From an uncultured Muribaculaceae bacterium (GTDB lineage: Bacteria > Bacillota_I > Bacilli_A > RF39 > UBA660): a stretch of 42,847 nt of DNA. Below are positions 24,596 through 35,164 of the stretch, piece after piece. The DNA lies in contig CAZWST010000005.1 of the NCBI GenBank assembly GCA_964636965.1, positions 1 through 42,847 on the forward strand, read 5' to 3'. Every line of letters starts with the position of its first letter. The first letter of the stretch is position 1. The translations under genes were made by a program, and so were the position numbers. The notes under the pieces are model-generated. The model saw only the letters and a list, made by a program, of their open reading frames with translations. It had not been told where the DNA came from and did no database searches.

Positions 24596-24767
24596 AATAT
24601 CACCTCTATTATTAAGTTAATTATAACAATTTTTCTAAAAGAAATTCAATAATAAGTTATATCAATAATTTACAACGAATTGGGCATAATAAATGGTGAC
24701 AAAGAGTATATGAAGTATTTACATAAAAACTTGATAATGCTATAATTTAATTATAGGATGTGAAAAT

Positions 24768-27700
24768 ATGAAGAAGTCAAAGTATGCATTATTATCACTA
24801 ACTTTAATATTTAGTATGACTATACTTGCTATTGGTATTAGCATTTCTAAAATAGATAAAACAAAAGGAGCAGTTGCCGTAGAAAATGACGTGCTTTATG
24901 CATGCTCTCCCGGTCCAGCTGTAGCTTATAAAACCACTGGAAATTTTAACTTAAGAACTAGTCCTTCAACAAGTGGCACTATCATAAAAACAATACAAAA
25001 AGGAAAAACCATTAATGTACTTTGTATTACAGGAGATTGGGCTTATGCAAGTCATGGGACTGACAAAGGATATATTTCTTTAAGTGGAATTGAAGAGCTA
25101 CCTGTATCTGTAAATGTTGGAAATATCACCAAAAACCCAAGTACTTTTTATCGAAATAACAACTATGAAGGAACTTTAAATGTTTCTACTAGTAATTTAC
25201 CAAATGAAGGCGCAAGTAGACTAAAAATAACTATCAAGAAAAATGGGAATAATGCTGAAGAAGACTTTAATATTACCAAAAATGGACTTAGTAATGGAAA
25301 AGCTTCAATTCATTTTTCACGTAAAAACGCAACAGTCTATGGAAATTATGTTATTGAAGTAACACTTGATGGAGTAACAAAAGGAACTAAAGAATTTAAA
25401 GTAGAAAAAAATGAATTTAATTTTAATGTTGGAAAATTTGAGGCAATTTCAAATGTAGCAGCAAACGAACAAGGGGAATGGCATTTTTCTATTAATAACC
25501 AAATACCATCATCTCTTTCAATTTCAGATTTTAATTATACAATTAAGAAAAACAATCAAGATGCAACAAACTATTTTGACGTATCTATACAAAACGGAAC
25601 TTTAATAGTAAGAAATAAACCTATGAATATTGGTTTTAACTCTTCTAATCTTAAATGGGAAATTTTAAATGAAAATTCATATACAAGAGAAGGAAATTAC
25701 TCAGTAACTTTTACGCTTAAAAACCAATCTGAATATTCAGATATAAATGGATTTTCAAAGTCTCAATCATTTAGCATATCTCAAAAACGTGCTACAATGG
25801 CCGAAGATCCAGCTGCTGGAAGTACAGCAAGATATCAAATAGATTATACGAATTCGGCATTCAATGTTGATATCATAGGGGTTGCAAATAATAGAGGAAT
25901 AACTATATATGTTTTAGATGAACATCTTTCTTCTGGTACCAACAGAGTTACATATTCAGAGGCGGAGATGCGACAAATTTATCCAAATATTCAACTAAGT
26001 ACTATTAATACAGATTCTCGCTTCCATTATTATGATGAAACTCTTGCATTAGAAGTATATCCAGTTATCGTTAATTATAGTGATACTGTTTTTATAACAA
26101 ATTATACACATGCATCATCTACACCTACTGTAACTTATTATGAAGGATTATCTTCATCAACTACAGTAACTAAATCAGTAGCAGACTTTCAAGCAGAAAA
26201 TCCATCAGCTTATGAAAAATTAACATCTACTAGCTATATATATGGGTCAGACGGAAGCATTAAAGTCCATGAAACTGGAAAAGATAAGGTAATAAAACAT
26301 ATCACCACTATGCCAGATAAAAAACCACTAGCAGTAACCGGTGGTGAGATTAAAACAGCTCTAAAATTCAGCGGATATATAGATAGTGAACTTCAAAACT
26401 TTAAGGCTAGATTGATTAGAAGAAGTAATAATAACACTCTTGTTGATACAGAAGGTAATGCTATATATGATCCTAACTTTGAACTTATTATAGACACTAC
26501 AAAACTAAATACAGGTTATGTATATATCTTAACTAAATATAAAGATAACAATGCTTCTTATATTGGAGAGTATAAGCTTCAATATGGGTTTGGCAATTAT
26601 AACAATGAGTCCTCATTTTCTTTAGAGGATGGTAACACTGACTATACAATATTCAGTGAAGTTGATCCTAAGGGAATAAATGGAGAAGAACTAATTGGGG
26701 CAAATCCTGGAGCAAATGAAAAATTTGATTATAACATAGGTTTATACTTAAAAAAATCTCGTACAGATTACTACAATGTTAACTTAGATTCAATTAATTA
26801 TATTATTTTAGATAAAAGAGTAGATAAAGATACAAATGGTAACTATTATTTCTACGATGAAGTTGAATATATTACAAGAGTTAATAGAATTTATGATGGT
26901 AAAGTATACTTTGACTTAAGTGTAGATAATGGTGGCTCTTATGTTAATAATCAAGTATTAACAATTAATGAATTCAAAACAACTTATGCCGAAGCTTATG
27001 AATTATTTAAAGATTATACTGCTGGTGCAACAAAGTTAACTAATTATAATTTAGATGCTAATGGCTATATTATAAGTGATAATTTTCCAATTCATCCAGT
27101 TCGTAATTATGCTCTTACTAGTGATGCAACAGATATGACTTTAGATTATAAAGATGCATCTGGTGAGGATCATACAGTACTTATGGATACAGCTTTCAAA
27201 CGTGCAAATGTTGATATGTATAAATTAATACTTACTAAATTTGGCTATGACAAAAATGGTTATTATATTTTAGGTGCTGTAAGTGGACGAAGAAAAGTAA
27301 ATATTGACACTACTAGTACATTAGAAAGCCATAATGTAACTGATTTATTCTTCGTAAAAAAATCAGCTAAAATAAATACTAATGATGAAGAAGAACAAGA
27401 AAAGCTTTCTAAGAAAACTTTAACGGTTTTACCTAAAACTGAGGTAACTCCAGGGGAGTACTATGTATATGTTTCACACGATAACGCTGAGGCAATTGGT
27501 TTTATTTATACTGATGATAGTATTGATTCAGCCTTTGAACTTGCTATTTATCCAGAACTTTATAATCGTAATATTCATATGACATCAATAAACTACAATA
27601 AAGCAAATTATACTATTTCAATTGATGATGCAATAGCAGAAAATACCGTTAATGATATGCCAATCGTGTATGCTAATGTTGAAAGTTCTTTAAACTTCAA

Positions 27701-30700
27701 TATGAAATTAAACTATATTTATAATTTAGATAATTTAAGCTATAGAATTGAATATAAGAATAATAAGGGTGCTTGGATTAATGCAGATAATTATTTTAAT
27801 ATAAATTCTCAATTACATCCTAGTTCATCAATTACTGATGATAATTATAATAATAGGGGCTTAACAGATTCTTCTATGTTATTAACTACTATTCCAGGGG
27901 TTACTAAAAAAGGAGATTATCGTATAGTGTTTAATTACTCAAATAATGGAGCAAATATGACACCAGTAGTAAAAGAGTTTTCTATTAAAGCTAACTACTA
28001 TAGCATTCAAGTTAATCCTGATGAAGTAGTTAGATTAACAAGTGAAGGAAATGTTAAATTTACAAACTTTTACAGTAATCAAAGATATGATATAGCAATA
28101 CCTATACATTTATATAGCGTTGATCATCCAGAAAATCTTGAATTTGAACTTCTTCATAAAACATCTGGAAGTATCGAGCCTTGGAATTCGGATAGAAAAG
28201 AGTTTAGAAGTTTCCGAGATAATTCAGTTGTCGATTTTAAATATAGCTATACATTAGATGTTATTGATCAAGATGAATCATTATATCTTATGAGATTTAG
28301 TAATTATGTAGGAACAGATATACCTAAATCTGCTCTAGGTAATTATGTCCTAAGCATTAGATACCATGAAACAGGTGGAGAAACTGTTGAAACAACTTTC
28401 AAGTTTGCTGTAAACGAACCACAAAAAGAATTTAAATCAATAAAAGATAAGGCAATATCAACACCTGATGAGATGTATATAACAAGAAATATGGAATCCT
28501 CTTATATAATTGGTTCTCGTTTAGTTAGTGATGAAATATCTTATTCAATTGAAATGTGGGATGGAAGTACTTATGTTGATGTTTCCAGTGAAAATGCGGA
28601 TACAAGATATTTCACAATTGATATGAAATGGAAAGATACTGATGTAATAGACAGAGTAAATTATTATGGTGATATGAAAGTAAACCTAGCAGTTGACAAG
28701 GTTGAAAGAATATATGAATTAAGCGATGAAAAAAGATTTTTAATGATTGTAACTCTTTCAGGTGTAAGATATGAAGTTGAGATGCCAAACATTCGTGAAT
28801 TATTCAAGTGGGAAATTAGTAATGTTAATATTTCTGGTGAAGTAGAAAGTGAAGGGAAAACTATACCTGTAACTGGATTTTATAATAATGCAAAACCTGA
28901 AATAGCTGTCGATTTAGTAACACCACATTTAGAAAATGCTAAATTCGCTATTACTCAAGAATGTTCCGGAAATGTATGTAATCCTAATGAAGATATGATT
29001 AACTATAATGATAGATTTGATGTTATAACTCATACAAACGAAAAAATAGTTTTAAAACTAAAAGAAAACTTAGCACCAGAATTAAAACTAAAAATTGGTT
29101 CATATCAATTAGTTGTATATTATAATCAAACTGACTTTGATATTTATAGATTTAGAGTAAGAAATGAATATTTATCAATTGATTTAGGCGAAGTAGAAAT
29201 TAATACTCCTGTCAAAAATGGAATATCAAATGATTTATTTGTTAATAAAACTTCAACTATTAATATACCTGTAAGTATCATTGGTTCTCGATATGAAGAT
29301 GTAACAATAGATATATCTAATAATGATCAAACTATTAACTACAATCATTTATTCGAAATAAACTTGGAAAAATTTTATAAAGACCATGTCCTTGAAATAA
29401 CGTATGATAAAGATAAAGATATAGAAGCAAAAGATTATCTAGTGATGGTTCATAAAACAATAGATGAAGAAACTGTTGAAGATCATGCAATATTAAAATT
29501 TAATGCAACATATTTTAATTATATGGTTACAAATGTAACCTATGATCCAACACCAGCCGTACCAAATTATGAACATGGTGGAACAATAACTTTTGATATT
29601 TCAACTGATGAATTAATGACTGGAGATGTATTTACTGATCGTGAAATTAAGCGTTCATTCATAGATAATCTAACCATTAATCATTCAGAAGTTATTGAAA
29701 ACTTAAATGATTATTTTGAAATAACTTATCAAGATACATCTGATATGAATAATTTTAAAGTTATATTAAGATATGGTAATGAAAATCCTATATACCCAGG
29801 GTCTTATACGGCAACATTCATAGCGACAAAAGAGACATTTACATTACAAAAAAGACAAGAGTTCACTGTTGGAAATTTCGAAAGAAGAATTACTATAAAT
29901 GATGTAACAATTGAATCAAATACAAAAGATAACCTTATTCATAAAAATACAGGTGGTACCTATAATGTTAATTACACATCAAATTATGAAATAGATATTT
30001 CTAATTTATATGTTAAAGTAACTGACAACGAAGATAATGATGTAACTGACAAATTTATAATAGATAAATCTAATTTAGGTATAGTTAAATTAACTTTTGA
30101 TCCAGAATTACATACAATAGATTTTGGTACTTATAAAGTTACACTTACATACACTGATCCATCAACTAATCGTGATGATGTTAATTCAGTAGATGTAATC
30201 ATGTATGGAGATTATAAAGAAATAACTTTAAAAGATATGACTCCAAGTACAACACCAATAATTGCTGAAAATGAAGGACAATATTATAACTTCAACTTGG
30301 ACACATCTAATTTAACTTCCGAGGAAATTGGTAAGATGAAGATTCGTATATATGATATTTATGACAATATTGTTTATTCCAATATAGAATCAGATAATAT
30401 CACAAATTCTTTTGAAGTTGTAAAGGGTGAAAATCCTAGTAGTTATCGCATAAATATTATGCCTTATAAAGCTAGAGTAGGTTCATACTTTATCGAGTTT
30501 ATTTTACCAGCATCATATGATCCAAATAATCTAGGATTAGAAAATATTTCAAATAAGCTTGAATTAACTATCGATGATACTCTTTACTATGTAAATGTAG
30601 ATTCTAAATCAACTATAACTACTCAAACAAGAGTAAATAATAAAGATGATTTATATGATTATATTGGCGTTAATGGTAATTTTAAATTTACATCAACTTC

Positions 30701-31595
30701 ACCAATAAAAGATGAATATTCTATTAAGATATTTAATAAACTTAAACTAGTAAAAGAATTGAGTATTGAAGAGTATCAAAATGGAACATTCGAAAGTTTT
30801 AAATTTAAGAGTGATGAAATATCTAATGGAGATGTTGAATTTGCATTATGTATAAGAGGATTACCTTATGCATCAATTACTAAAAATGTTTTAGAGTACA
30901 TAAAGATAACAGACTTTAGTATTATATTAAATCATCAAGATATTGAAAGTGAATTAACGTTAGATCCAGGAGATGAATTAGAGTTTGATCTTATCACCAC
31001 TCCAGATAATGCAACTGATAAGAATTTAGTATTTAAATCAAGTGATGAAAGTATTGCAACATTTGATAATAAAACTATTAAGGTTAATAGTTCTGGTGAA
31101 ACTACAATAACAGTTGGAAATAAAGAAATAAGTAAGACATTTACACTTAAAGTATCAGAACAGTTAGATTCTCTTACCTATGAAATAACTCAACCTGAGA
31201 ATGGAAAAGCTGGAACAATATTTGTAAGTTCCTTAAAATCAAAAACATTTACCAAAGAAGAATTTATAAATAATTTATTACATGTAACAGATGGCTATAA
31301 AATATATGATGGTGATGATGTAGATGTTACTTCAACTACCAATGTAATAGGTACAGGTTATAAAATTAATAATGGTAATATGCGTTATGTAATTATCGTT
31401 ATTGGAGATGTAAATGGTTCTGGAACGATAGATTTCGGAGATGCAACTCAAACATTTAGAGCATACCGAGGTACATATGCATTAAGAGGAGTATACTTAA
31501 AAGCAGCTATTGTATCAAAGAGTGGAGAAAGGGTAAACTTTGGAGATGCAACAACACTATTTAGATTCTATCGAGGATATATAAATGAAATATAA
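24768..31595 (+). CDS. Giant secreted protein: SH3b domain, ~11 divergent Ig-like repeats, Big_2-like domain and C-terminal dockerin-like domain
   Basis: Signal/TM N-terminus; NLRTSPSTSGTII...GDW...GYI (SH3b); recurring D.T..F....G.Y motifs; TPDNATDKNL.FKSSDESIAT (Big_2); GDVNGSGTIDFGDATQTFRAYRG...VNFGDATTLFRFYRG (duplicated dockerin segments). Confidence 0.8.
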   Translation: MKKSKYALLSLTLIFSMTILAIGISISKIDKTKGAVAVENDVLYACSPGPAVAYKTTGNFNLRTSPSTSGTIIKTIQKGKTINVLCITGDWAYASHGTDKGYISLSGIEELPVSVNVGNITKNPSTFYRNNNYEGTLNVSTSNLPNEGASRLKITIKKNGNNAEEDFNITKNGLSNGKASIHFSRKNATVYGNYVIEVTLDGVTKGTKEFKVEKNEFNFNVGKFEAISNVAANEQGEWHFSINNQIPSSLSISDFNYTIKKNNQDATNYFDVSIQNGTLIVRNKPMNIGFNSSNLKWEILNENSYTREGNYSVTFTLKNQSEYSDINGFSKSQSFSISQKRATMAEDPAAGSTARYQIDYTNSAFNVDIIGVANNRGITIYVLDEHLSSGTNRVTYSEAEMRQIYPNIQLSTINTDSRFHYYDETLALEVYPVIVNYSDTVFITNYTHASSTPTVTYYEGLSSSTTVTKSVADFQAENPSAYEKLTSTSYIYGSDGSIKVHETGKDKVIKHITTMPDKKPLAVTGGEIKTALKFSGYIDSELQNFKARLIRRSNNNTLVDTEGNAIYDPNFELIIDTTKLNTGYVYILTKYKDNNASYIGEYKLQYGFGNYNNESSFSLEDGNTDYTIFSEVDPKGINGEELIGANPGANEKFDYNIGLYLKKSRTDYYNVNLDSINYIILDKRVDKDTNGNYYFYDEVEYITRVNRIYDGKVYFDLSVDNGGSYVNNQVLTINEFKTTYAEAYELFKDYTAGATKLTNYNLDANGYIISDNFPIHPVRNYALTSDATDMTLDYKDASGEDHTVLMDTAFKRANVDMYKLILTKFGYDKNGYYILGAVSGRRKVNIDTTSTLESHNVTDLFFVKKSAKINTNDEEEQEKLSKKTLTVLPKTEVTPGEYYVYVSHDNAEAIGFIYTDDSIDSAFELAIYPELYNRNIHMTSINYNKANYTISIDDAIAENTVNDMPIVYANVESSLNFNMKLNYIYNLDNLSYRIEYKNNKGAWINADNYFNINSQLHPSSSITDDNYNNRGLTDSSMLLTTIPGVTKKGDYRIVFNYSNNGANMTPVVKEFSIKANYYSIQVNPDEVVRLTSEGNVKFTNFYSNQRYDIAIPIHLYSVDHPENLEFELLHKTSGSIEPWNSDRKEFRSFRDNSVVDFKYSYTLDVIDQDESLYLMRFSNYVGTDIPKSALGNYVLSIRYHETGGETVETTFKFAVNEPQKEFKSIKDKAISTPDEMYITRNMESSYIIGSRLVSDEISYSIEMWDGSTYVDVSSENADTRYFTIDMKWKDTDVIDRVNYYGDMKVNLAVDKVERIYELSDEKRFLMIVTLSGVRYEVEMPNIRELFKWEISNVNISGEVESEGKTIPVTGFYNNAKPEIAVDLVTPHLENAKFAITQECSGNVCNPNEDMINYNDRFDVITHTNEKIVLKLKENLAPELKLKIGSYQLVVYYNQTDFDIYRFRVRNEYLSIDLGEVEINTPVKNGISNDLFVNKTSTINIPVSIIGSRYEDVTIDISNNDQTINYNHLFEINLEKFYKDHVLEITYDKDKDIEAKDYLVMVHKTIDEETVEDHAILKFNATYFNYMVTNVTYDPTPAVPNYEHGGTITFDISTDELMTGDVFTDREIKRSFIDNLTINHSEVIENLNDYFEITYQDTSDMNNFKVILRYGNENPIYPGSYTATFIATKETFTLQKRQEFTVGNFERRITINDVTIESNTKDNLIHKNTGGTYNVNYTSNYEIDISNLYVKVTDNEDNDVTDKFIIDKSNLGIVKLTFDPELHTIDFGTYKVTLTYTDPSTNRDDVNSVDVIMYGDYKEITLKDMTPSTTPIIAENEGQYYNFNLDTSNLTSEEIGKMKIRIYDIYDNIVYSNIESDNITNSFEVVKGENPSSYRINIMPYKARVGSYFIEFILPASYDPNNLGLENISNKLELTIDDTLYYVNVDSKSTITTQTRVNNKDDLYDYIGVNGNFKFTSTSPIKDEYSIKIFNKLKLVKELSIEEYQNGTFESFKFKSDEISNGDVEFALCIRGLPYASITKNVLEYIKITDFSIILNHQDIESELTLDPGDELEFDLITTPDNATDKNLVFKSSDESIATFDNKTIKVNSSGETTITVGNKEISKTFTLKVSEQLDSLTYEITQPENGKAGTIFVSSLKSKTFTKEEFINNLLHVTDGYKIYDGDDVDVTSTTNVIGTGYKINNGNMRYVIIVIGDVNGSGTIDFGDATQTFRAYRGTYALRGVYLKAAIVSKSGERVNFGDATTLFRFYRGYINEI

Positions 31596-32097
31596 ATTGC
31601 TAATTATTTGTCTATTACTTCTCCCACTAAAGTGTTTTGCTTTAGAAAGAGTGGATGTATCTTGTGATAAGACAAATGACATTTATGATTGTAGGTTAAG
31701 TGCAAATATAGATTATGCCATAAGCGGAATTGATTTTCACTTTTCCTTACCTTCATCAGCTAAATTAATTAGTTATGAATTAGATTCAAAATGGGAAGGA
31801 ACAGCTGATGATTTTTGGGTATCTGTATATTCAGAAAAAGACGTAACTGGCGAAACCCCCATATTAACATTGAAAATAGAATCAACTAAAAAATTAAAAA
31901 ATACTGATATAGAAATTAAAGATTTACTTATAATTGATTCTAAATATAAAGAACATAAAGTAAACATAAATAAGGACAAAAAAGAAGTAAATAGTAAACA
32001 ATTTGACATCATGAAGTTACTAATTATAACAATATGTGTTATTATTATATTAAGTATAATAGTAATAATAAAGAAGTTGAAAGGAGATTCTAAATGA
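31585..32097 (+). CDS. Small cohesin-like domain protein with C-terminal TM anchor
   Basis: Signal peptide; ISGIDFHF...LISYE...W...ILTLKI...IEIKDLLIID resembles cohesin beta-strands; C-terminal TM plus KK; overlaps the upstream gene by 11 nt. Confidence 0.55.
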   Translation: MKYKLLIICLLLLPLKCFALERVDVSCDKTNDIYDCRLSANIDYAISGIDFHFSLPSSAKLISYELDSKWEGTADDFWVSVYSEKDVTGETPILTLKIESTKKLKNTDIEIKDLLIIDSKYKEHKVNINKDKKEVNSKQFDIMKLLIITICVIIILSIIVIIKKLKGDSK

Positions 32098-33638
32098 AAA
32101 GATTAAGTATTACAATTATTGGAATCTTTCTATTAATATTATTTCCTATAAAAGTAGATGCTGCATCTTTAAGTGTATCATTATCTTGCTCGAATACAAC
32201 TGCAGGAAAATCCACAACTTGTACTTTAAGAGGAAATGCAACAGATGATGGTATTACGGGGTTTGAAGCTTATGTAAATATTACAAATGCTGCAATTACA
32301 AGTATCGCTCCAGGCGGGGGATTTGAAGCTATGCCAGGTAATAATAATACATACATTGCATATTATTCTGGGGACTCTAAAGTTGGCTCATTTACAATTG
32401 CTACAATGACTATTAATACATCTTCCCCTGGAAATGCAAATGTATCAATTCCAAGTATTACCTATGTTGACTCAAAAGGAAAAACAACCTCGGGAGCTAC
32501 GGGGACTTCTAGAAGTTTTACAATAAGTCCAGCAGCAACGCAACCTCCTCAAACACAAGCACCAAGACCAACTACTAAGGCAACAACTAGAGCAACTCAA
32601 GCTCCAACAACTGCACAACCAACTGCACCAGTTGGAACAGAATTAAAACTTGATAGTGTCAAAGTAGGAGACTTTGAAGTAAATTATCAAGAAGGTAAAT
32701 ATTATGTAACAGTTAACTATGATACAGAAAGCGTTAATGTTGAAGCAACGGCTAATCCTAATCTAACACTTATTGGTGGTGGAATTAGAACACTTGCTGT
32801 TGGTAAAAATGTTGTTGAAATAATCATAAGAAATGAAATAAATCAATCAGCAACTGCTCAAATAATAATAACAAGACCAGAAGATACGAATGATTATAGT
32901 ACAAATTTATCGGATCTTAAATTAGTTGATTATGATCTTAAATTTAATAAAGACATACTTGAATATACTGTCTATGTACCATCAAACGTCAAAGAAGTAT
33001 ATGTTATAGCTAAAAGTGAAAATGTTAATGTTTCAATAATGGGAGATGGCTTACAAACTTTAACTAACGGTAACAATGATATTCATGTTAAAGTTCAATA
33101 TGGAAATAAAGCAGAAACTAACTATGTAATACACATTAAAAGAAGTTATAACTCTATAATAATGTGGGGAGTTATTGCAATACTTTCTACTTTTGTAATC
33201 GGAACAATCTTCTATTTTAATGATAAACTTAAAAAGGTTAAAATTTCCAATAAAGAAGAGAAGAGTAAAATATTAGCTGAGGCAAATAGAACTGTTGCTG
33301 AAAGCAAAGAAAATGTTACTTTAAATGGACAAAGTGTTGTTTCACCAACATCGGTCTCAAATATACCTGTTCAAAATAGAGTACAAGCACAAGTACAGCC
33401 TCAAAGAAATATTGGACAAAGTAATCAAAATAATAATACTCAAGTTGTTGAAAAAAGAGTACCAACAAATCCTGTAACTGTTGCAACTTCTACTGTTTCA
33501 CCAACTCAAGTATCTCCTCAAGCACCAACCCAAGTTAAATTAGTTCAAACATTAGATAGACAACCAATAAAAGTTAATAGAACGCCAATTAAAACGAATG
33601 GTGCAAGACAAGTTGTAATTAATACTTCTAAAAAATAA
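32094..33638 (+). CDS. Cohesin-like domain, P/T linker, two cadherin-like beta-sandwich domains, TM and Q/V/T-rich cytoplasmic tail
   Basis: Signal peptide (VDA); ITGFEAYV...GSFTIATMTI...GNANVSI..ITYVD; TQAP repeats; LKFNKDILEYTVYVP...V.VIAK...L..GNN.I.VKV...YVIHIKR (cadherin-like). Confidence 0.65.
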   Translation: MKRLSITIIGIFLLILFPIKVDAASLSVSLSCSNTTAGKSTTCTLRGNATDDGITGFEAYVNITNAAITSIAPGGGFEAMPGNNNTYIAYYSGDSKVGSFTIATMTINTSSPGNANVSIPSITYVDSKGKTTSGATGTSRSFTISPAATQPPQTQAPRPTTKATTRATQAPTTAQPTAPVGTELKLDSVKVGDFEVNYQEGKYYVTVNYDTESVNVEATANPNLTLIGGGIRTLAVGKNVVEIIIRNEINQSATAQIIITRPEDTNDYSTNLSDLKLVDYDLKFNKDILEYTVYVPSNVKEVYVIAKSENVNVSIMGDGLQTLTNGNNDIHVKVQYGNKAETNYVIHIKRSYNSIIMWGVIAILSTFVIGTIFYFNDKLKKVKISNKEEKSKILAEANRTVAESKENVTLNGQSVVSPTSVSNIPVQNRVQAQVQPQRNIGQSNQNNNTQVVEKRVPTNPVTVATSTVSPTQVSPQAPTQVKLVQTLDRQPIKVNRTPIKTNGARQVVINTSKK

Positions 33639-33664
33639 TACAAGCTAAAACTTGTATTATTTTT
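33635..33664 (+). terminator. Intrinsic terminator of the surface-protein operon
   Basis: AATAATACAAG-CTAAAA-CTTGTATTATT followed by a T run. Confidence 0.8.
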
Positions 33665-33717
33665 ATTTATATAAGATGTATAATATGATATACTTTTATA
33701 TAGTAGGGAGCTAAATT

Positions 33718-34309: not shown

Positions 34310-35164
34310 ATGAATAATGAAAATAATAACAACAATAATCAAAATAATAATTATGTAAAACCACAAAATGTTGATTTATCAAACGTTAATATAGATAAAA
34401 GTAATGAAAATGCCTTAAATCGTGAAAGAGATAATATAATAAAAGCGTCTGTTCAAGCAAATAACTCTGTAAATGAGACTCAAGCAAAAATTGTAAATAA
34501 TACAATTAAAGTAAAGAAGAGAAATCCAATTGTTTCTTTTCTTATCGGAGCTTTTTTTATTACAATAGCTGGTGTACTTGCCTATTTTGGATTTAGACTA
34601 CTTAGAACTTACATAACTTATGATGATGCTAAACATACAACAACGACTACAACTACTCAAAAAGTCAATTATTTTGCAAATTATACATATGACACAACTA
34701 AGTTAAGAAGATTCCAAAATGACTCAAGTATTCTTTTTATAATGCCTTCAGGCACTAGTTCTAAAGCTAGATATATTTATGTTGAATATTCTAGTGATGG
34801 AAGTCTAAAGGAAGAAAGTGGAACATATAATATAAAAGATAGAACCATTACCCTTGTAAGTGACAATGCAACTCAAAAAATATATGATATTGAGTCGTCT
34901 AATCTAAAGAGTGGAGATACTTATTTAAATATGAGTGATCAAGAATATAAATATTATTCTAACAAATCAGGAGATACTGAAAGTATTTTAATAGTTAATG
35001 CATCAGTAAATAAAACTTTTGCTTATTTCTATGATACAAATAATAATATATTTACAAACTTTAAAGAGACTACTTCATCTATAGATCTAGAAAATGGTAT
35101 GCTATTTACAAAATCAGGAAATGATTTAATTTATAATGGTTTAACATATAATTACATACAATAA
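34310..35164 (+). CDS. Hypothetical single-pass membrane protein
   Basis: Asn-rich N-terminus, TM helix, poly-Thr linker and beta-rich extracellular domain. Confidence 0.75.
   Translation: MNNENNNNNNQNNNYVKPQNVDLSNVNIDKSNENALNRERDNIIKASVQANNSVNETQAKIVNNTIKVKKRNPIVSFLIGAFFITIAGVLAYFGFRLLRTYITYDDAKHTTTTTTTQKVNYFANYTYDTTKLRRFQNDSSILFIMPSGTSSKARYIYVEYSSDGSLKEESGTYNIKDRTITLVSDNATQKIYDIESSNLKSGDTYLNMSDQEYKYYSNKSGDTESILIVNASVNKTFAYFYDTNNNIFTNFKETTSSIDLENGMLFTKSGNDLIYNGLTYNYIQ

What the first reader, a model, noticed from the sequence alone, without database searches (positions are those of the whole stretch)
24768..33638. Candidate non-cellulosomal dockerin-cohesin surface complex encoded as one operon
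Seen: three overlapping genes ending at one terminator. The first is a 2275-aa secreted SH3b/Ig-repeat protein ending in a duplicated dockerin-like segment, whose second Ca-loop is degenerate while the FGDAT..FR.YRG helices are conserved. It is followed by two signal-peptide proteins, each with an N-terminal cohesin-like domain and a C-terminal TM anchor, one short and one on a P/T linker plus cadherin-like stalk with a long cytoplasmic tail. No glycoside hydrolase domain is recognisable. Established: dockerin-cohesin pairs assemble cellulosomes, and SH3b domains bind peptidoglycan. Inference: a membrane-tethered giant adhesin with the dockerin at the base and a cell-wall-binding SH3b at the distal tip, possibly for attaching to other bacteria, with two alternative anchors.
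Basis: partly seen in the sequence, partly recalled or inferred. Interest (0 to 1): 0.72.

Follow-up and report, generated by a model that had tools for sequence, protein, structure and literature searches.

The report
Giant surface fibre on cohesin-dockerin anchors
Three overlapping genes, conserved across a genus of uncultured small-genome gut bacteria, encode a 2,275-residue secreted chain of Ig-like domains ending in a dockerin "plug" and two membrane proteins tipped with cohesin-type "sockets" that likely fasten it to the cell surface, a non-enzymatic reuse of the cellulosome connector whose binding target is unknown.

Summary
Confirmed: three overlapping ORFs (2275, 170, 514 aa) followed by a terminator-like hairpin. 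The giant's C-terminus is a divergent X-module-dockerin (ortholog profile hits solved dockerins, E 3e-8). The N-terminal domain of gene 3 has a cohesin fold (Z 15.3). Gene 2's domain is its paralog (HHalign 98%). No catalytic domain was found. The giant is present in 18-19 of 22 genomes of the genus, and dockerin-gene-then-cohesin-gene pairs recur across the family, including a second pair in this genome. Binding is inferred, not measured. Gene 2 is absent from one genome. The scan has reported similar non-cellulosomal cohesin-dockerin pairs on other DNA many times. Verdict: a real, new variant of a known kind; interest 0.45.

The parts
24768..31595 (+). Giant secreted protein, 2275 aa: signal peptide, SH3b, a chain of about 12-14 Ig-like domains (count inferred from motifs) with two inserted arms, Big_2, X-module, dockerin
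   Evidence: 26 full-length orthologs including a near-identical copy
24948..25082 (+). SH3b (SH3_3) domain, aa 61-105; absent from 7 of 30 orthologs
25896..26018 (+). Arm repeat copy 1 (aa 377-417, most divergent copy), in the insert of the Ig domain spanning about aa 343-623
26121..26273 (+). Arm repeat copy 2 (aa 452-502)
26895..27083 (+). Arm repeat copy 3 (aa 710-772), in the insert of the next Ig domain (about aa 624-945)
27129..27281 (+). Arm repeat copy 4 (aa 788-838)
30951..31148 (+). Big_2 Ig-like domain, aa 2062-2127
31155..31403 (+). X-module preceding the dockerin (aa ~2130-2212), shared with X-dockerin proteins across the family; fold not predicted
31404..31592 (+). Dockerin, aa 2213-2275: intact first calcium loop, degenerate second loop, two near-identical recognition helices (10 of 13 residues identical)
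31585..32097 (+). Gene 2, 170 aa: signal peptide, cohesin-like domain (aa ~20-130), short linker, C-terminal TM segment
32094..33638 (+). Gene 3, 514 aa: signal peptide, cohesin (aa ~23-146), P/T linker, two cadherin-like domains (first weak), TM segment (aa ~351-376), ~135-aa cytoplasmic tail with conserved motifs
33631..33672 (+). Terminator-like hairpin and U-rich run
   Evidence: z -4.8; not listed by the consensus scan
24718..24746 (+). Best sigma-70-like site in the region (11 of 12, with TG); site counts overall are at chance level (79 found vs 86 in shuffles)

Best explanation
The operon encodes a giant secreted Ig-domain fibre ending in a dockerin and two co-encoded single-pass membrane proteins tipped with cohesin-type domains, and the fibre is likely held on the cell surface by its dockerin binding one of those cohesins. 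Shown: the domains, the cohesin fold of gene 3, the gene order and its conservation. Inferred steps: (1) all three proteins are exported through Sec by their signal peptides; (2) genes 2 and 3 stay in the membrane by their C-terminal helices, with the gene-2 cohesin close to the membrane and the gene-3 cohesin lifted on a P/T linker and two cadherin-like domains; (3) the giant, which has no TM segment or LPxTG of its own, is captured by its C-terminal X-dockerin. Gene 3 is the likely main anchor because it is kept wherever the giant is, while gene 2 can be lost. (4) The mirrored recognition helices point to two binding orientations even though the second calcium loop has decayed. (5) The Ig chain would project tens of nm, with a non-catalytic adhesive or coating role carried by the conserved arm repeats and a swappable N-terminal tip (SH3b in most orthologs). 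The ligand is unknown.
For: Dockerin: profile hits to solved dockerins, E 3e-8. Cohesin: the top 16 VIA rows are all cohesins, best Z 15.3, rmsd 2.0 over 122 residues, and the top Foldseek hits are cohesins. Gene 2 vs a profile of gene-3-type domains: HHalign probability 98.3, 109 columns. An ortholog of gene 2 draws Cohesin clusters in the Atlas at 0.82-0.86, a lead only. Order giant-g2-g3 in 17 of 18 loci with an intact junction, out of 21 fetched, several of them the same species. In the genus: giant-type X-dockerin in 18 of 22 genomes plus one cut at a contig end, gene 3 in 21 of 22 at E<1e-30, gene 2 in 17 of 22 at E<1e-20. Family-wide, the gene after an X-dockerin gene encodes a signal-peptide cohesin-like protein in 23 of 25 loci where the motif was found, out of 30 examined (judged by eye; a profile from 19 of them matches the genome's C43 cohesin at E 1e-18 and the gene-3 profile at 99%). 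The genome's C43 pair passes the Pfam Dockerin_1 and Cohesin cut-offs in adjacent genes. Mirror symmetry: the two repeats share 3.61 of 6 recognition positions within a protein vs 1.74 across proteins, with no such excess in the loop; mirrored signatures lie on separate branches. Symmetric dockerins are known to support dual binding (PMC12484212, passages). The model of aa 339-1088 is Ig-like domains with inserts.
Against: The dockerin and the gene-2 domain are too divergent for Pfam, and gene 2's own profile finds no cohesin in the PDB. The profile used contains five non-orthologous family cohesins and the reciprocal g2-profile hit on gene 3 is weak (E 0.036). The second calcium loop is degenerate in 22 of 26 orthologs, so the domain might fold or bind atypically. 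Other cohesin-like membrane proteins exist in the genome (C43, C20, C58, C12) and could be the real partners. Only aa 339-1088 of the giant were folded, and the inserts were barely tested by the fold search, so a hidden catalytic or lectin domain is not excluded. Related sequences inflate the permutation statistic.
Confidence: 0.7

Rival explanations
1. One reading: the fibre is an interbacterial adhesin whose distal SH3b grips the peptidoglycan of other bacteria, suiting a scavenging or epibiotic lifestyle.
For: SH3_3 lies at the distal N-terminus, and SH3_3 is listed as a peptidoglycan binder (PMC5817068, passages). The N-terminal 340 aa are the most variable part. RF39 is predicted to need scavenged muropeptides (PMC10868615, section 20); placing this genome in RF39 rests on relatives' record titles and recall.
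Against: SH3b is missing from 7 of 30 orthologs that keep the rest of the protein. It is a single copy. The same N-terminal SH3b sits on the genome's other dockerin protein. Nothing tested here separates foreign from own wall.
Confidence: 0.12
2. The giant is a structural coat or envelope brace rather than an adhesin: tethered at the membrane by dockerin-cohesin and optionally to its own wall by SH3b, it packs sideways through the arm repeats into an S-layer-like or reinforcing layer over a thin wall.
For: Near-universal retention in the genus at a fixed chromosomal site beside ftsW and an adenosine deaminase gene in several loci, unlike a variable adhesin. No SLH domain was found in the genome (85% complete). 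The arm repeat also occurs in a separate conserved membrane protein. A thin wall is predicted for these lineages (PMC10868615, section 20).
Against: Fold matches to S-layer proteins are generic multi-Ig matches with TM-scores of 0.11-0.13. There are no data on abundance or lattice formation. This reading shares the anchoring mechanism with the best explanation and differs only in role.
Confidence: 0.12
3. The dockerin has lost cohesin binding or binds a cohesin encoded elsewhere, and genes 2 and 3 are co-transcribed surface proteins with another role.
For: Degenerate second calcium loop. Several other cohesin-like membrane proteins in the genome. Gene 2 is lost in one genome.
Against: Recognition helices stay mirrored while the loop decays, with synonymous differences at 4 of 10 identical residues. 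Dockerin-then-cohesin adjacency holds in 23 of 25 family loci. Dockerins with one calcium loop can be functional (PMC12270676, abstract).
Confidence: 0.12
4. The giant carries an unrecognised enzymatic or glycan-binding activity, making this a minimal cellulosome-like enzyme display.
For: Adjacent single cohesin and dockerin genes form an enzyme complex in Cellulosilyticum lentocellum (PMC13487519, abstract). Most of the giant was not folded here.
Against: No Pfam CAZyme, NCBIfam or PDB sequence hit. Conserved residues are mostly aromatic, Gly and Asn core positions of Ig type rather than a catalytic cluster. No GH5 or GH9 found in the genome (85% complete).
Confidence: 0.06

Closest known systems
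Single-cohesin anchoring proteins of cellulosomes (C. thermocellum OlpA, OlpC, SdbA; R. flavefaciens ScaE with X-dockerin partners)
   Same: A cell-attached cohesin captures a secreted protein by its C-terminal (X-)dockerin. The gene-3 domain superimposes on the OlpA and OlpC cohesins at Z 12.8-13.2. SdbA and SLH anchoring as described in PMC5817068 (passages); ScaE details partly recalled.
   Different: The anchor is a transmembrane helix, not SLH or sortase; the cargo is a non-catalytic 2275-aa Ig fibre; there is no multi-cohesin scaffoldin; there are two paralogous anchors in one operon; the cohesins have a conserved Cys pair.
Minimal ClcC/ClcD cohesin-dockerin pair of Cellulosilyticum lentocellum (PMC13487519, abstract seen)
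   Same: Adjacent genes, one dockerin and a single-cohesin partner.
   Different: That pair is a cellulase complex; no CAZyme domain was found here, and there are two membrane-anchored cohesin-type proteins.
Non-cellulosomal cohesins: C. perfringens glycoside hydrolase cohesin modules (2vo8, 2w1n) and the A. fulgidus cohesin (2xdh); cohesin/dockerin adhesin candidates of syntrophic SRB and ANME (PMC10553843, passages)
   Same: Best structural matches of the gene-3 domain (Z 15.3, 14.2, 13.2). In SRB, adjacent cohesin/dockerin domains with Ig proteins are proposed as adhesion factors.
   Different: Different lineage and architecture; the arm repeat and the mirrored dockerin with one decayed loop are not described in what was read.
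XMod-Doc:Coh catch-bond complex of Ruminococcus champanellensis (PMC7456326, abstract seen)
   Same: X-module plus dockerin at a C-terminus, dual binding modes, load-bearing adhesion in the gut: a model for how the anchor could resist shear.
   Different: The X-module here was not shown to be homologous beyond weak profile overlap with CipA X-dockerin chains, and the cargo is not a cellulose-binding scaffoldin.

Membership tests
Dockerin (type I-like) | Sequence homology to solved dockerins, duplicated ~22-residue loop-helix motif | tested here: met
   Ortholog profile hits 2ccl_B at E 3e-8 across both repeats; P0019 passes the Pfam Dockerin_1 cut-off
Dockerin (type I-like) | Two intact calcium-binding loops | tested here: not met
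   Loop 1 keeps 4-5 of 5 positions in 26 of 26; loop 2 keeps 2 or fewer in 22 of 26, including the window protein, and 3-4 in 4 of 26
Dockerin (type I-like) | Internal symmetry of recognition residues (dual-binding signature) | tested here: met
   3.61 vs 1.74 of 6 positions, 0 of 20,000 shuffles reach it, though kinship inflates this; mirrored signatures on separate branches of a quick tree. Position numbering is recalled from the dockerin literature.
Cohesin (gene 3) | Cohesin beta-sandwich fold | tested here: met
   Model pLDDT 94.6; Z 15.3, rmsd 2.0, 122 aligned; top 16 rows are cohesins
Cohesin (gene 2) | Cohesin beta-sandwich fold | tested here: inconclusive
   Not folded. Homologous to gene-3-type domains (HHalign 98.3; HMM E 5e-13); Atlas lead to Cohesin clusters at 0.82-0.86; no direct PDB sequence hit
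Cohesin-dockerin pair | Measured high-affinity, specific binding | not testable with these tools
   Needs ITC or pull-down
Cellulosome | Multi-cohesin scaffoldin | tested here: not met
   Each cohesin-like protein found in the genome has one such domain (genome 85% complete)
Cellulosome | Dockerin-bearing plant-polysaccharide CAZymes | tested here: not met
   No CAZyme in the giant; no GH5 or GH9 found in the genome; the GH48 search was uninformative; only two clear dockerin proteins plus a weak third at C58
Fibrillar adhesin | Secreted, tandem Ig-like stalk with a cell anchor at one end | tested here: met
   Signal peptide, Ig-like folds for aa 339-1088, Big_2, C-terminal dockerin
Fibrillar adhesin | Adhesive domain with a demonstrated ligand | not testable with these tools
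   SH3b is optional; the arm repeat has no known relative
S-layer protein | Self-assembly into a lattice, high abundance, SLH or equivalent anchor | tested here: inconclusive
   No SLH found; only generic multi-Ig fold matches; abundance not testable

The most novel reading that the evidence does not exclude
These minimal gut Bacilli use an addressable cohesin-dockerin code as a general surface-display system. Each cargo gene is coupled to its own membrane cohesin with orthogonal specificity. In this genus a one-calcium, two-fold symmetric dockerin switches a giant fibre between a low and a high anchor, while a new ~50-aa arm module on the fibre and on a separate membrane protein cross-links them into a previously undescribed envelope layer or adhesion apparatus.
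Probability: 0.15. Interest if true: 0.75.

Novelty: new variant of a known kind. Interest (0 to 1): 0.45.

Why it matters
This is an abundant but uncultured small-genome gut lineage whose surface biology is almost unknown. X-dockerin matches occur in 131 of 301 genomes of the family, so cohesin-dockerin display appears to be one of its main ways to attach proteins. The cohesins are too divergent for standard annotation. The small domains can be expressed in E. coli, which makes three things directly testable: orthogonality between the C5 and C43 pairs, whether a dockerin with one calcium loop keeps dual binding, and what the new arm repeat binds. New orthogonal pairs would also be useful for designer scaffolds. 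The principle itself (non-cellulosomal cohesin-dockerin anchoring) is already known, which caps the surprise.

Tried and rejected
Complex prediction of the X-dockerin (aa 2130-2275) with the gene-2 domain: no answer, scores 0.14 and 0.19 against a mark of 0.32, controls not folded. It is not counted either way, and the gene-3 pair could not be run (one job only). Sequencing runs: no RNA holder listed; contig lays show presence only. Pfam, NCBIfam and PDB sequence searches of the giant gave nothing beyond SH3_3 and Big_2. Fold searches of aa 339-1088 returned only generic Ig matches (Z up to 9.0) and barely tested the inserts, so no claim of a new fold is made. The arm-repeat profile found no solved relative. 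In the 1.84-billion-protein library 41 of 73 hits had no homolog in this genome; 39 of these match only part of the profile, mostly a short hairpin motif (DUF4176 and DUF7507 proteins among those scanned), and were set aside. The weak G064 hit is an RHS-like protein and was rejected. In-frame stops and splits flagged in gene-2 orthologs were normal stop codons or assembly gaps, not pseudogenes. Sortase replacement as an explanation was rejected, because the genome has four sortase-domain genes. The GH48 search rang in no control and is uninformative. Pfam Glucosaminidase did not match the C43 cargo, so its middle domain stays unassigned. The promoter scan was at chance level. Literature: no paper held 'dockerin', 'cohesin' and 'RF39' together; searches listed none describing this operon or lineage; Peer et al. 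2009 on non-cellulosomal modules was not held and may bear on novelty, as may subscription papers. No supplements were read.
Full report
Context. The window is contig C5 of a 1.49-Mb, 27% GC genome bin, 85% complete. Relatives carry record titles such as 'uncultured Bacilli bacterium' and 'Firmicutes bacterium CAG:582'. Placing these in order RF39 is from my recall. An independent contig spans 24721-35304 with 149 substitutions and no gaps, so the locus is real.

Observation. The three ORFs exist at the stated coordinates and overlap by 11 and 4 nt. A hairpin with a U-rich run follows gene 3 (z -4.8), although the consensus scan did not list it. The giant has only an N-terminal hydrophobic segment and no LPxTG. 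Genes 2 and 3 each have a signal peptide and one C-terminal TM segment. Pfam finds SH3_3, Big_2 and Cadherin-like domains but no dockerin, cohesin or CAZyme.

The dockerin. A profile of 11 orthologous C-termini hits solved dockerins (best 2ccl_B, E 3e-8), and one ortholog passes the Pfam cut-off. In 26 full-length orthologs the first calcium loop is intact in all, and the second is degenerate in 22 and largely kept in 4. This places the window's form as a decayed dockerin rather than a look-alike. The two recognition helices are more alike within a protein (3.61 of 6 positions) than across proteins (1.74), with no such excess in the loop (1.30 vs 1.42 of 9); 23 distinct pairs were counted. Kinship inflates the p-value, but a quick tree built from the upstream region shows different mirrored signatures on separate branches (the careful search did not finish). 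In the window, 10 of 13 helix residues are identical and 4 of those use different codons. Symmetric dockerins support dual binding (PMC12484212, passages), and one-loop dockerins can be functional (PMC12270676, abstract). I infer maintained, probably two-way, cohesin binding.

The cohesins. The gene-3 N-terminal domain folds with pLDDT 94.6 and matches cohesins: Z 15.3, rmsd 2.0 over 122 residues, with the top 16 rows all cohesins. Gene 2 was not folded. It is homologous to gene-3-type domains (HHalign 98.3%, with a profile that includes five non-orthologous family members; HMM E 5e-13), an ortholog draws Cohesin clusters as a lead only, and its own profile finds no PDB cohesin.

Conservation. 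The order giant-g2-g3 holds in 17 of 18 loci with an intact junction, of 21 fetched, some redundant. L033 lacks gene 2 with the junction contiguous. Among 22 genomes of the genus the giant-type X-dockerin is in 18 (plus one cut at a contig end), gene 3 in 21 and gene 2 in 17. Apparent breaks in gene 2 were ordinary stops or gaps. Across the family, X-dockerin matches occur in 131 of 301 genomes. In 23 of the 25 loci where the motif was found, of 30 examined, the next gene encodes a signal-peptide cohesin-like protein (judged by eye and supported). Cargo lengths vary from under 400 to over 4000 aa. This genome has a second, canonical pair on C43 (SH3b...dockerin followed by cohesin-cadherin-TM) with different recognition residues. 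All 22 genus genomes have at least two X-dockerin matches.

The giant. Residues 339-1088 fold confidently (pLDDT 90.1) into Ig-like domains, two of which carry large inserts (a single Ig match spans model residues 5-285 with about 100 aligned). Each insert holds two copies of a ~50-aa strand-strand-helix-hairpin repeat (HHalign 93-96% among copies 2-4, weaker for copy 1), present 3-4 times in all 26 orthologs. A profile trained only on the giant finds one more copy in a separate membrane protein on C12 (E 2.5e-8). In 1.84 billion representatives, 13 of 73 hits are giants or their fragments, 19 are C12-type proteins, and 41 have no homolog in this genome, nearly all partial motif matches. In the family the repeat was found in 6 of 301 genomes: five in two genera and one rejected. 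It has no Pfam or PDB relative. I did not show its fold to be new. The rest of the giant was tested by sequence only.

SH3b. The N-terminal region is the least conserved (mean identity 0.27-0.34 vs 0.41-0.52 over the last 900 residues). SH3b is absent from 7 of 30 orthologs: five of these form one clade, one has a clean deletion and one has a different insert. SH3_3 is listed as a peptidoglycan binder that may also bind proteins (PMC5817068, passages). That model stays possible, since RF39 is predicted to scavenge muropeptides (PMC10868615, section 20).

Not a cellulosome. There is no multi-cohesin scaffoldin and no GH5 or GH9 in the 85%-complete genome. Sortases are present and SLH was not found.

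Mechanism and odds. Most likely (0.70) the fibre is displayed by dockerin-cohesin capture on gene 3 and/or gene 2, with a non-catalytic adhesive or coating role. The refinements and rivals are an SH3b-driven interbacterial adhesin (0.12), an envelope coat (0.12), a dockerin not partnered with these genes (0.12) and a hidden enzyme (0.06). The first two share the anchoring step with the best explanation, so the figures are not exclusive. Binding, expression and ligand are all inferred.

Comparison and novelty. It works like the single-cohesin anchors of cellulosomes and the minimal ClcC/ClcD pair (PMC13487519, abstract), and the X-dockerin recalls the load-bearing complex of R. champanellensis (PMC7456326, abstract). 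Cohesin/dockerin adhesin candidates are described in syntrophic SRB (PMC10553843, passages), and dockerin-rich giant proteins in Omnitrophota (bioRxiv 2023.11.21.568195, passages). It is not a cellulosome member. Searches listed no paper on this operon or lineage; one key review was not held. Earlier unchecked notes of this scan report similar pairs in other genomes (41 notes match the words), but none on this sequence. Verdict: a new variant of a known kind, interest 0.45.

Noticed in passing
L062:2258-5502 (G000:C43:10757-14004): Second, canonical pair in the same genome: SH3b plus unassigned middle domain plus X-dockerin (592 aa), followed by cohesin-cadherin-TM (486 aa). Its recognition residues differ from those of the window's dockerin, suggesting orthogonal pairs.
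   Followed up: partly
L061:1218-2759 (G000:C12:7717-9261): Membrane protein with an unassigned N-terminal domain, two cadherin-like domains and one copy of the giant's arm repeat just outside the TM segment. Orthologs sit downstream of a radical-SAM-like gene in G011, G057, G222 and G257; G257's fetched X-dockerin giant is of a different type.
   Followed up: partly
L063 (G000:C58:4777-7182): An 801-aa ORF with a weak cohesin match at the N-terminus, a TM segment, a second hydrophobic segment and a weak dockerin-like motif in the middle. It looks like a cohesin gene and a dockerin gene in one frame.
   Followed up: no
L064 (G000:C20:17110-18669): Orphan cohesin-like, cadherin, TM protein with a Q/N-rich tail, downstream of the gatAB-like genes and with no adjacent dockerin gene (E 3.5e-6 with the family cohesin profile).
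   Followed up: partly
L057 (G058:C11:12500-26000): Three tandem ~780-aa dockerin proteins with near-identical recognition helices, followed by one cohesin-like anchor gene: several cargoes for one socket.
   Followed up: no
window:33222-33635 and 34310-35164: The cytoplasmic tail of gene 3 has motifs conserved across orthologs. The downstream single-pass protein (284 aa) is syntenic in most loci and may be a partner.
   Followed up: no
window:3549-9161: Four overlapping ORFs, two without a family hit, then a 729-aa AAA_5 (MoxR-like) ATPase and a DUF7192 protein; this resembles a MoxR-vWA-type operon (resemblance recalled).
   Followed up: no
window:18260-19234: Weak Sortase-domain match (21.5 bits, below cut-off) upstream of the mraY-like and ftsW genes.
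   Followed up: no
window:41905-42846: YhcG/DUF1016 PDDEXK nuclease-like gene running off the contig end.
   Followed up: no
P0073, P0075-P0077, P0087 and similar: A family of DUF4176 proteins carrying 4-10 tandem short aromatic-D-x-x-G hairpin motifs in a low-complexity tail, surfaced by the repeat profile.
   Followed up: no
L081:5006-11116 (G064): A 2036-aa RHS/YD-like protein followed by two paralogous ORFs, resembling a polymorphic toxin with immunity genes (resemblance recalled).
   Followed up: no
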